Under the pieces are notes generated by a model. That model ran no database searches. It was not told the origin of the DNA and saw only the letters and a list, made by a program, of their open reading frames with translations. Shown one piece after another: positions 40,000 to 41,455 of a stretch of 64,000 bases of DNA (within the stretch, counting starts at the first letter, position 1; the number at the start of each line of letters is the position of its first letter). Made by a program: the position numbers and the translations under genes. This stretch comes from a virus: UHGV virus genome UHGV-0134996; one strand, written 5' to 3'.

Positions 40000-40214
40000 T
40001 TATCCACAGCATAGATCCAATAAACAGATCCTAAAGAGAACCTAGGAAGATCCAAAGAAGATCCCGGATCGCTGTAAGCCGCGTCATTACTGGCCTGAAA
40101 TGGGATCAACATTGACTATACGCGATTTTATGTTGACTGTGCACGATTTATTGTTGACTGCACGCGATTTATTGTTGACTATACGCGACAGAAACATTGA
40201 CTGTAAGCGATTTT
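40000..40214. other. oriR: plasmid origin oriR: DnaA box, GATC cluster and five direct iterons
   Basis: TTATCCACA DnaA box (40000-40008); six GATC in 40014-40098; five about 21-bp iterons TTGACT(A/G)T(A/G)CGCGATTT from 40111. Confidence 0.8.
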
Positions 40215-40291
40215 AGAGTCTGAATATTCACAGCTGTTGATAACAGCCATCCAAATTGACGTCAGGCCGCGCCACACATGGAGAAACCGTG

Positions 40292-41176
40292 ATGCCGGAA
40301 GAAAGTAAAGGCTTCCTTAGCGTTGAAGAAGTTGCAGGAAATACAGGAGAAATCCACAGCCTGAAGCCCAATAACAACAGCACTATACAACCCATCGCTT
40401 TGTTGCGCTTAGGTGTGTTTGTGCCAACCTTAAAATCTACCAATGTGGCGCTACGTCGCGGATCGTCAGTTACAACAAACACAACGAACGCAACTGAAGA
40501 ACTATCAAGCCTCAAAATTGTTGAGCAGGAAGGCTATGAGGGAATTGAAATTCATGGTCCACGCCTGGATATGGATACTGATTTTAAGGTGTGGGTGGGC
40601 ATAACTTCCGCGTTGTTTGACTACGCACCTGATGATGACGGCATAATCACCCTGCCATTCTCCGAGTTTGCCGATCGATGCGGCTATCCACGTAAGCGCC
40701 TTTCAAAGGCGTTCCGTAAAAGTATTGATGACTCTCTGACACGCATTCAGCAGACAGTTGTCAAATTCCGCTTCCCGGCGGCAAAAGGTCATCTCAATAA
40801 CATTAACGTCAACTTGTTGGCATATAGCAGCCTGAATACCGAGCTTGATGTTATCGAGATCCAGCCGCAGAAACAGCTATCTGAACTTTACTATGTTGAC
40901 TATAAGCGAATCCTGAAGCTGAAGATGCTGGATAAACTAGGGCGCAAAGAGACGGCCAAGGTACTGTATACATTCTTTGAGGCTCTACCCGCCAACCCGG
41001 CACCTGTCAGCATTGAGCGCCTTAGAGCGAGGCTTAATCTCAAATCATCCGTTAGCGTGCAAAATAGCGTTATCAGAAAAGCCATGAAAGATTTGGAAGC
41101 TATTGAATATCTTAAATTTTCAGAGATAAAAAACGGCAGGAAAATCGGCTTCCAGATCCATAAGCGCAATCCATAA
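40292..41176 (+). CDS. repA: RepA plasmid replication initiator (iteron-binding)
   Basis: 294 aa from ATG with GGAGA RBS; motifs ALLRLGVFVP, GPRLDMDTDFK, RKAMKDLEAIEYL shared with P1-type RepA but overall divergent. Confidence 0.8.
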   Translation: MPEESKGFLSVEEVAGNTGEIHSLKPNNNSTIQPIALLRLGVFVPTLKSTNVALRRGSSVTTNTTNATEELSSLKIVEQEGYEGIEIHGPRLDMDTDFKVWVGITSALFDYAPDDDGIITLPFSEFADRCGYPRKRLSKAFRKSIDDSLTRIQQTVVKFRFPAAKGHLNNINVNLLAYSSLNTELDVIEIQPQKQLSELYYVDYKRILKLKMLDKLGRKETAKVLYTFFEALPANPAPVSIERLRARLNLKSSVSVQNSVIRKAMKDLEAIEYLKFSEIKNGRKIGFQIHKRNP

Positions 41177-41455
41177 TATTGACTATATGCGATAGCGAGA
41201 AGTTGACTATAGGCGACATTCGTTGACGCTGGTGGATTTTTGCTGGCGTCAATATTCTGCAAGTCGCTATTGAGATGGCTTTTAGGGGCATTTCATCGCG
41301 TATAGTCAACGTTTCTCCCGACAATATCTTACATAGTCGATCTTTGGTGGAGTTAAATCGACTACAGTCAACTTTTGACTGTAGTCACATCGCGCATAGT
41401 CAACTATTCACATTAACCTTCGCGCATAGTCAACATTTGCGCGGTTCTCATCAAG
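41165..41455. repeat. incA-like copy-control iteron array downstream of repA
   Basis: Multiple TTGACTATA / TATAGTCAA / CATAGTCAAC repeats in both orientations. Confidence 0.7.

What the first reader, a model, noticed from the sequence alone, without database searches (positions are those of the whole stretch)
40000..41455. Replicon appears swapped relative to P1 while partition genes are P1-type
ParA/ParB/parS look P1-like, but RepA shares only motif-level similarity with the P1 RepA I recall, and the iterons (TTGACT(A/G)T(A/G)CGCGATTT, five upstream, a dense array downstream) are a different repeat family. This mosaic suggests a different incompatibility type carrying P1 partition and lysogeny modules, and the T5orf172 gene may have arrived with the replicon.
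Basis: partly seen in the sequence, partly recalled or inferred. Interest (0 to 1): 0.4.

Follow-up and report, generated by a model that had tools for sequence, protein, structure and literature searches.

The report
Known p0111 replicon in P1-like phage-plasmid

Summary
Against reference P1 (NC_005856) the window is 97-99% identical on both sides, but about 40009-42344 has no DNA match. ParA and ParB are each 99.7% identical to P1, and parS matches at 109/110 bases.

The replaced block carries:
- a RepA-family initiator (40292-41176, 294 aa), only 42% identical to P1 RepA but homologous over its full length;
- 11 strong copies of a different iteron (TTGACTATACGCGAT): five upstream at 21/21/21/22-bp spacing, exactly as in P1 incC, and a direct-plus-inverted array downstream laid out like P1 incA;
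- a T5orf172 gene (41469-42278).

The initiator is 292/294 identical to that of pO111_2 (AP010962), the PlasmidFinder "p0111" reference. Published surveys already state that P1-like phage-plasmids carry either IncY or p0111. One paper describes repA'(p0111) plus an unknown gene replacing repA(IncY).

The block is a near-invariant unit in about 390 plasmids. It occurs in 415 of 5,426 complete E. coli genomes, against 361 for IncY.

Diverged P1-like elements carry the same replicon family, one of them at the same locus with a T5orf172 homologue. It therefore looks like an old alternative allele exchanged by homologous recombination, not a foreign capture. Already known; low interest.

The parts
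39991..40008 (+). Two tandem DnaA-box positions. TTATTCAAC (39991-39999) is degenerate and TTATCCACA (40000-40008) is perfect. This is the left end of the origin and aligns with the two tandem DnaA boxes of P1 oriR.
   Evidence: Sequence; global alignment with P1 6334-6358; P1 annotation of the DnaA site at L001 6341-6358.
40010..40075 (.). GATC-rich region with five GATC sites (40014, 40027, 40049, 60, 67) in AGATCC-type repeats. It is a diverged homologue (identity falling from about 83% to 65%) of the Dam-methylated part of P1 oriR. A sixth GATC lies at 40104.
   Evidence: Sequence; alignment; identity profile; P1 annotation of Dam sites 1-5. The same module is present in relatives L002 and L009.
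40112..40213 (+). Five direct iterons (incC equivalent) starting at 40112, 40133, 40154, 40175 and 40197. Spacing is 21, 21, 21, 22 bp. Each carries TTGACT, a near-consensus -35 hexamer.
   Evidence: The five P1 incC iterons (L001 6458, 6479, 6500, 6521, 6543) have the same spacing.
40236..40244 (-). DnaA-box-like 9-mer (TTATCAACA on the minus strand, one mismatch) between the iterons and repA'. Relatives L002 and L009 have a perfect TTATCCACA at this place.
   Evidence: Sequence; sequences of the relatives.
40292..41176 (+). repA' (p0111 type), 294 aa, ATG preceded by GGAGA. It is a Rep3-family WH1-WH2 initiator.
   Evidence: ORF; Pfam Rep3_C 27.3 bits (cut-off 21.1) and Rep3_N 22.0 bits (cut-off 22.4); 42% identity to P1 RepA; 292/294 to pO111_2; phrog_775.
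40896..40912 (+). Iteron-like site inside repA' (TTGACTATAAGCGAATC). Its weight-matrix score is 17.8, against 21.5-26.5 for the 11 strong sites.
41179..41433 (.). Downstream iteron array (incA equivalent).
- Direct copies at 41179 and 41203, plus a degenerate one at 41223 (TTGACGCTGGTGGATTT, which contains a Chi site).
- Inverted copies at 41293-41309, 41355-41371, 41387-41403 and 41417-41433, plus a weak one at 41324-41340. Together these give about 31-bp spacing.
- A degenerate direct copy at 41375.
   Evidence: P1 incA has 3 direct plus 6 inverted iterons, the inverted ones at 30-31-bp spacing.
41469..42278 (+). T5orf172 (GIY-YIG-related) gene, 269 aa. The domain covers residues 8-85. The C-terminal ~165 residues have no relatives outside this small family.
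   Evidence: Pfam PF10544, 26.9 bits against a cut-off of 20; phrog_2876.
42286..42310 (+). Terminator-like hairpin plus T-run that closes the replaced block.
42345..42446 (+). Sharp right junction. P1 homology resumes here with the par promoter/operator (105/106 identical to P1).
42447..44661 (+). parA (42447-43643) and parB (43660-44661), P1 type.
   Evidence: 99.7% identity each to P1 ParA and ParB; Pfam HTH_54, AAA_31 and ParB.
44666..44748 (+). parS centromere (P1 incB). One mismatch to P1 in a 110-bp alignment (44662-44771) that contains the site.
   Evidence: with the P1 annotation of parS at L001 10255-10337.

Best explanation
This is the low-copy plasmid-prophage replicon of a P1-like phage-plasmid, in its 'p0111' allelic form.

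Anatomy (shown). It has the same parts in the same order and spacing as P1 oriR-repA-incA:
- host DnaA boxes and a Dam-methylatable GATC cluster;
- five 21-bp-phased iterons;
- a further DnaA-like box;
- the initiator gene;
- a downstream array of direct and inverted iterons.

Mechanism (inferred from the P1, F and R6K paradigm, not tested here):
- RepA' monomers bind the five origin iterons and, with DnaA, open the adjacent GATC/AT-rich region to start theta replication.
- RepA' bound to the iterons, each of which carries a TTGACT -35-like hexamer, represses its own gene.
- The downstream array titrates RepA' and pairs with the origin ('handcuffing') to hold copy number at about one.

Specificity and origin. 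RepA' (42% identical to P1 RepA) and its iterons have changed together, so the pair should not cross-react with the P1 IncY pair. The block, including a linked T5orf172 gene, has replaced the IncY allele by homologous recombination in conserved flanks (upfA/ori-left on one side, the par promoter on the other). The P1 par system and the rest of the phage are unchanged.
For: - Breakpoints and flank identities.
- RepA' homology and domains.
- Iteron number, phase and enrichment.
- Identical layout to annotated P1 incC/incA.
- Identity to the p0111 reference pO111_2.
- Near-identity (98-99.8%) to named P1-like phages JL22, SJ46, RCS47, phi456 and Ro157c2YLVW.
- Literature: PMC9603915 says repA'(p0111) plus gp57 replace repA(IncY), counts 24/55 p0111 against 31/55 IncY, and reports that JL22 lysogenises MG1655. 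PMC11165635 counts 132 p0111 against 94 IncY in Salmonella and infers about 17 switches of replicon type on the phage-plasmid tree.
- Prevalence: 415 of 5,426 complete E. coli genomes carry the block, almost all on plasmids.
- Same replicon family in diverged P1-like backbones: L009 (RepA 84% identical, same locus, backbone about 70% identical) and L002/NZ_CP085065 (RepA 85%).
- No IS or transposon ends at the junctions. The left junction is a gradient of identity, as expected for homologous exchange.
Against: - No experiment on this replicon's initiation, autoregulation or handcuffing was found in the papers read. The mechanism is transferred from P1.
- The simple promoter scan found no consensus-like + strand promoter for repA'.
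- The downstream array has 6 strong sites plus 2-3 degenerate ones, against 9 in P1.
- Rep3_N scores just below Pfam's cut-off (22.0 against 22.4).
- Compatibility of p0111 with IncY is only called theoretical in the literature.
Confidence: 0.9

Rival explanations
1. A foreign replicon, for example from an IncFIB-type conjugative plasmid, was captured by a P1 genome through illegitimate or transposon-mediated recombination. On this reading the element is a phage x plasmid hybrid of recent origin.
For: RepA' is as close to, or closer to, IncFIB-type and other enterobacterial initiators (45-53%) than to P1 RepA (42%). Databases label it 'RepFIB replication protein A'.
Against: - At 95% identity or more, the initiator was found only in plasmids of P1-like size and context. 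Nothing lies between 60% and 80% identity in 72,556 plasmids.
- There are no IS or transposon ends at the junctions.
- The origin's DnaA/GATC module is alignable with P1's, and the architecture is P1-like down to the 21/21/21/22-bp phase.
- Diverged P1-like backbones carry the same replicon family, one at the same locus.
Confidence: 0.05
2. There was no replacement. The region is P1's own replicon, diverged in place by accelerated mutation.
For: Gene order, origin layout and initiator family are the same as in P1.
Against: - Flanks are 97-100% identical, while the block has no detectable DNA similarity and only 42% protein identity.
- The right boundary is sharp at 42345.
- An extra 810-bp gene is present.
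- The rough tree places the two initiators in different sub-branches.
- The replicon type switches repeatedly on the backbone tree (PMC11165635).
Confidence: 0.01
3. The linked T5orf172 (GIY-YIG-related) gene is a homing-endonuclease-like selfish gene. On this reading it cuts IncY-type P1 genomes near incA/par during co-residence and drags the p0111 replicon in by co-conversion, which would explain the tight linkage and the frequent replicon switches.
For: - The block and the gene always travel together.
- The gene sits exactly at the sharp right junction.
- Putative GIY-YIG-type residues (Y8, Y10, K21-I22-G23, R31, E58, H62, E82) are invariant between two homologues only 44% identical.
- phrog_681 'endonuclease' matches residues 4-100.
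- About 17 replicon switches are inferred in Salmonella.
Against: - There is no evidence of nuclease activity or of a target site.
- T5orf172 domains are also described as plain DNA-binding modules (own knowledge).
- The gene is split in the reference pO111_2.
- It is absent beside the related replicon in NZ_CP085065.
- IncY remains about as common as p0111.
- The structure model was too poor to judge.
Confidence: 0.05

Closest known systems
p0111 replicon type of P1-like phage-plasmids (PlasmidFinder reference AP010962, E. coli O111:H- 11128 plasmid pO111_2; also in phages SJ46, RCS47 and JL22)
   Same: The initiator is 292/294 aa identical and the whole 39900-42500 stretch is 98.3% identical. 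Identity to JL22, SJ46 and RCS47 is 98.1-98.8%. The neighbours are the same: upfA on the left, the T5orf172 gene, then P1-type parAB on the right.
   Different: Nothing of substance. In pO111_2 the T5orf172 gene is annotated as two ORFs, whereas here it is intact.
P1 / P7 plasmid replicon (IncY): oriR (DnaA boxes, five Dam sites, incC iterons), repA, incA
   Same: - Same order of parts.
- Same five origin iterons at 21/21/21/22-bp spacing.
- Downstream array starting at the repA stop codon, with direct then inverted copies, the inverted ones about 31 bp apart.
- DnaA boxes at both ends of the origin.
- Alignable GATC module.
- Initiator of the same family and similar length, 294 against 286 aa.
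   Different: - The initiator is only 42% identical.
- The iteron is TTGACTATACGCGAT(TT) instead of GATGTGTGCTGGAGGGAAA.
- There are 6 strong plus 2-3 weak downstream sites instead of 9.
- An extra T5orf172 gene lies before par.
- There is no DNA-level match across 40095-42344.
RepFIB-type (IncFIB) iteron replicons of F-like and Klebsiella plasmids
   Same: Same initiator family (44-49% identity, full length). Databases name the protein 'RepFIB replication protein A' or 'RepB family'.
   Different: There is no DNA similarity. The context is a phage-plasmid, not a conjugative plasmid. The p0111 branch is separate in the rough tree.
Related replicons in diverged P1-like elements (Logan contig ERR2144811_21 = L009; E. 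coli plasmid NZ_CP085065 = L002/L008)
   Same: The initiator is 84-85% identical. The iterons are the same or nearly so (TTGACTATACGCGAT and TTGACTATGTGCGAT), and the DnaA/GATC module is the same. L009 also has the same locus and a T5orf172 homologue (44%).
   Different: The backbones are only about 65-72% identical to the window. NZ_CP085065 has no par genes or T5orf172 gene next to the replicon.

Membership tests
p0111 replicon type (PlasmidFinder) | Near-identity of the rep gene to the reference in AP010962 (pO111_2) | tested here: met
   292/294 aa identical; 98.3% nt identity over 2,601 bp to NC_013370. PMC11165635 names AP010962.1 as the p0111 reference.
p0111 replicon type (PlasmidFinder) | Carried on a P1-like phage-plasmid backbone | tested here: met
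   Flanks are 97-99% identical to P1, covering dmt, hrdC, upfA, parAB and genes 23 and 22. Most of the window matches P1.
IncY (P1/P7 RepA replicon) | repA nearly identical to P1 repA (K02380 / NC_005856) | tested here: not met
   No DNA match apart from a 32-nt patch; 42% protein identity.
IncY (P1/P7 RepA replicon) | 19-bp iterons of the GATGTGTGCTGGAGGGAAA type in incC and incA | tested here: not met
   The iterons here are TTGACTATACGCGAT(TT). The P1 iterons were listed for comparison.
Iteron-controlled theta replicons with a Rep3 (WH1-WH2) initiator | Initiator with Rep3_N and Rep3_C winged-helix domains | tested here: met
   Rep3_C scores 27.3 bits (cut-off 21.1). Rep3_N scores 22.0 bits, just under its 22.4 cut-off. 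Full-length homology to P1 RepA, E = 9e-71.
Iteron-controlled theta replicons with a Rep3 (WH1-WH2) initiator | Phased direct repeats next to the rep gene, with DnaA box(es) and an opening region | tested here: met
   Five iterons at 21-22-bp phase, DnaA box TTATCCACA at 40000-40008, and five GATC sites in 40014-40070.
Iteron-controlled theta replicons with a Rep3 (WH1-WH2) initiator | Initiator binds the iterons, autorepresses, and is limited by handcuffing/titration | not testable with these tools
   Inferred from P1. Needs binding and copy-number experiments.
P1-type (type Ia) ParABS partition system | ParA with an N-terminal HTH domain, P1-family ParB, and parS with box A/box B and an IHF site downstream of parB | tested here: met
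   Pfam HTH_54, AAA_31 and ParB. ParA and ParB are 99.7% identical to P1. parS matches at 109/110, and all annotated boxes align.
T5orf172 / GIY-YIG superfamily | Match to PF10544 above the gathering score | tested here: met
   26.9 bits against a cut-off of 20, residues 8-85.
T5orf172 / GIY-YIG superfamily | Nuclease activity, or homing-endonuclease behaviour | not testable with these tools
   There are only conserved residues and a weak 'endonuclease' PHROG match. The AlphaFold model is unusable (pLDDT 50).
Anti-phage defence systems (PADLOC) | Match to any PADLOC model | tested here: not met
   No hit for the T5orf172 protein or RepA' at E <= 0.01.

The most novel reading that the evidence does not exclude
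The T5orf172 gene welded to the p0111 replicon may not be a passenger. It could be a homing-nuclease-like or exclusion factor that biases inheritance of the p0111 allele over the IncY allele when two P1-like genomes meet. That would help explain the repeated replicon switches seen on phage-plasmid trees.
Probability: 0.06. Interest if true: 0.5.

Novelty: already known. Interest (0 to 1): 0.1.

Why it matters
The IncY/p0111 split is already used to type and screen P1-like phage-plasmids, which carry ESBL, mcr-1 and toxin genes. Recognising this window as p0111 type simply places it in the commoner of the two known classes.

Three details seen here were not mentioned in the papers I read:
- the iteron sequence and its P1-identical phasing;
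- the graded left junction inside the origin against the sharp right junction at the par promoter;
- the near-absolute linkage to an orphan T5orf172 gene.

These would be useful for designing mini-replicons and incompatibility tests. They do not change the picture.

Tried and rejected
- PADLOC and NCBIfam gave no hits for RepA' or the T5orf172 protein.
- A sequence search of the PDB with RepA' found nothing significant; the best E-value was 0.39.
- An AlphaFold2 model of the T5orf172 protein from a 3-sequence alignment was too poor for a fold search (mean pLDDT 50). No fold search was run.
- An exhaustive HMMER search of 1.84 billion representatives found full-length relatives of the T5orf172 protein only in its own cluster and in P0124. 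All other hits cover only residues ~1-105.
- The promoter scan gave no + strand promoter for repA'. A candidate is the TTGACT of the last iteron (40197) followed by GAATAT after about 19 nt. It is suboptimal and unproven.
- One search failed on query length. AP010962 is not in the collections under that accession, so NC_013370 was used instead.
- P1 isolate OP279344, used for a whole-window map, turned out not to match the window's par region by megablast (40009-44716 unmatched). The par comparison therefore rests on NC_005856.
- Chi was considered as a special feature of the block. It was rejected because Chi is 20-fold enriched across the whole window.

Full report
**1. What is there**

The window is a P1-like phage-plasmid, in the opposite orientation to NC_005856. 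Around the finding the gene order is dmt, hrdC, uhr, upfC, upfB, ppfA/mlp, upfA, [replicon], parA, parB, parS, 23, 22.

blastn against reference P1 (L001) gives 35774-40094 at 97.4% and 42345-48300 at 98.6%. Nothing matches between these except a 32-nt patch inside the rep gene.

A 150-bp identity profile shows the two junctions differ (alignment):
- The left side decays gradually: 98% up to ~39750, 94.7% for 39750-39899, 82.7% for 39900-40041, 65% for 40042-40110, then none.
- The right side is sharp at 42345, just upstream of the par promoter.

So about 2.3 kb (roughly 40009-42344) stands in place of about 1.5 kb of P1 (oriR iterons, repA, incA and 170 bp beyond).

**2. The parts**

- Left end of the origin. 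It has two tandem DnaA-box positions: 39991-39999 (degenerate) and 40000-40008 (TTATCCACA). Five GATC sites follow within 40014-40070. This stretch aligns with the two DnaA boxes and five Dam sites of P1 oriR.
- Origin iterons. Five direct iterons start at 40112, 40133, 40154, 40175 and 40197. The spacing of 21, 21, 21, 22 bp is exactly that of the five P1 incC iterons.
- A DnaA-like box at 40236-40244. It is a perfect box in two relatives.
- repA' at 40292-41176 (294 aa, GGAGA before the ATG). It has Rep3_C and Rep3_N domains. It is 42% identical to P1 RepA over 272 residues, E = 9e-71.
- Downstream array, starting at the stop codon. Direct copies lie at 41179 and 41203, with a degenerate one at 41223. 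Inverted copies end at 41309, 41371, 41403 and 41433, with a weak one ending at 41340. The five inverted copies are 30-32 bp apart. P1 incA likewise starts at the repA stop codon, with three direct then six inverted iterons 30-31 bp apart.
- An intact 269-aa gene at 41469-42278 with an N-terminal T5orf172 domain, followed by a terminator-like hairpin at 42286.

The iteron motif is far above chance and is confined to this locus. There are 14 hits against 4.6 expected, no shuffle reached 14, and 12 of the 14 lie in 40112-41433. In a weight-matrix scan the 11 strong sites score 21.5-26.5 bits and the intragenic site at 40896 scores 17.8. The best site outside the locus scores 14.4.

**3. The partition module is P1's own**

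- ParA is 99.7% and ParB 99.7% identical to P1.
- parS matches at 109/110 bases and the par promoter/operator at 105/106.

**4. Identity of the replicon**

- RepA' is 292/294 identical to the initiator of pO111_2 (NC_013370, the RefSeq copy of AP010962). The stretch 39900-42500 is 98.3% identical to that plasmid.
- PMC11165635 uses AP010962.1 as the p0111 reference gene.
- The block is also 98.1-99.8% identical to the P1-like phages phi456, JL22, SJ46, RCS47 and vB_EcoM-Ro157c2YLVW.

The literature already describes exactly this:
- PMC9603915 states that P1-like phage-plasmids have two replicon types, IncY (31/55) and p0111 (24/55). [quoted passage not shown] JL22 can lysogenise MG1655.
- PMC11165635 counts 132 p0111 and 94 IncY elements in Salmonella. 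It infers about 17 changes of replicon type along the phage-plasmid tree, and calls compatibility of the two types theoretical.
- A 2025 preprint screens with repA-IncY and repA-p0111 as standard markers.

**5. Distribution**

- The 2,250-bp block is full-length and at least 97.8% identical in 391 plasmids.
- RepA' at 95% identity or more occurs in 395 plasmid records. Three more lie at 80-95%, and nothing lies between 60% and 80%.
- The T5orf172 protein occurs in 401 plasmid records, always at 90% identity or more.
- Among 5,426 complete E. coli genomes, 415 carry the p0111 block and 361 the IncY block. This is the commoner form, not an oddity.

**6. Where it comes from**

A rough neighbour-joining tree puts RepA' and P1 RepA in different sub-branches of the RepFIB/P1 initiator family. 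Each is closer to other enterobacterial initiators (about 50%) than to the other. Even so, the replicon family is at home in P1-like elements.

- Contig L009 is a P1-like element with a backbone only ~68-72% identical to the window (ParA 89%, ParB 67%). It has the same gene order, an 84%-identical RepA', the same iteron sequence, and a 44%-identical T5orf172 homologue between rep and parA.
- A rare 94-kb E. coli plasmid with phage tail genes (NZ_CP085065; L002/L008) has an 85%-identical RepA'. Its iteron is TTGACTATGTGCGAT and it has the same DnaA/GATC module, but no par or T5orf172 gene alongside.

In L009 the replicon (70.8% nt identity) is about as diverged as the backbone. I therefore read p0111 and IncY as two old alternative alleles of the same locus. 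They would be exchanged among P1-like genomes by homologous recombination in the conserved flanks, rather than p0111 being a recent capture from an unrelated plasmid. No IS or transposon ends are present at the junctions.

**7. How it most likely works**

The anatomy is shown; the mechanism is inferred from P1, F and R6K. RepA' bound to the five origin iterons, together with DnaA, opens the GATC-rich region. Iteron-bound RepA' represses its own promoter, since each iteron carries a TTGACT -35-like hexamer. The downstream array titrates RepA' and handcuffs the origin to keep the copy number near one.

Because initiator and iterons have changed together, replicon-level cross-talk with IncY P1 is not expected. 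However, parS is P1's incB determinant (annotated as such in NC_005856) and is identical here, and c1 is P1-like (95.7% nt). From established knowledge of P1, partition-mediated incompatibility and immunity towards P1 should persist. 'Different incompatibility type' is therefore true only at the level of replicon typing.

**8. The T5orf172 gene**

- Its function is unknown. There is no PADLOC or NCBIfam hit.
- Only the first ~105 residues have relatives among 1.84 billion representative proteins.
- The AlphaFold model was unusable.
- Residues typical of GIY-YIG-like domains are conserved between the two homologues.
- A homing-like role is the most novel reading not excluded, but nothing here supports it directly. 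The gene is split in pO111_2.

**9. Verdict**

The feature is the well-documented p0111 replicon of P1-like phage-plasmids: already known, low interest.

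Noticed in passing
whole window; the copy in the finding at 41228-41235 (+): The Chi sequence GCTGGTGG occurs 32 times in 64 kb, against 1.6 expected. One copy lies inside the degenerate third direct iteron after repA' (TTGACGCTGGTGGATTT). That 17-mer is kept unchanged in the ~70%-diverged relative L009, and appears as GCTGGCGG in L002.
   Followed up: partly
window 41469-42278; L009 7124-7936: The T5orf172 protein is nearly an orphan. Apart from its own cluster, only one full-length homologue (P0124, 44%) exists in the protein collections searched, and it sits at the same place in a diverged P1-like contig. The C-terminal ~165 residues match nothing else.
   Followed up: partly
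L002 / L008 (NZ_CP085065.1 77,000-79,100): A rare 94-kb E. coli plasmid with phage tail genes, only distantly P1-like, carries a p0111-related replicon. Its RepA is 85% identical and its iteron is TTGACTATGTGCGAT. The replicon lies among tail genes, with no par genes beside it.
   Followed up: partly
window 1736-2791 (-): A 351-aa ORF about 77% identical at DNA level to P1 ant1 lies between c1 (852-1703) and pacB. This looks like an extra antirepressor-like gene at a place where reference P1 has none.
   Followed up: no
window 8734-17411: An 8.7-kb stretch has no match to the P1 isolate used for mapping. It is mosaic: parts match P1-like phages (humD, hot, upf genes) and parts match Stx-converting lambdoid phages (eaa, ead/Ea22-like genes). 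It corresponds to the published 'variable region 8' (pmgT-humD).
   Followed up: partly
window 50248-50939, 52788-53285, 55096-56137: Further short segments lack a P1 match. They lie at the positions of the published variable regions rlfA-rlfB-pmgF and sim.
   Followed up: no
window 38550-38850: There is a local dip to 87-90% identity with P1 inside upfB, in a Ser/Gly-rich part of the protein. The surrounding sequence is 98-100% identical.
   Followed up: no
L004 (GCA_048104335.1 contig, 99.8 kb): A 49%-identical RepA homologue sits in another ~100-kb E. coli phage-like contig, with Peptidase_S74 tail fibre, DUF4815 and DUF3799 genes. Initiators of this family therefore serve several phage-plasmid groups.
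   Followed up: no
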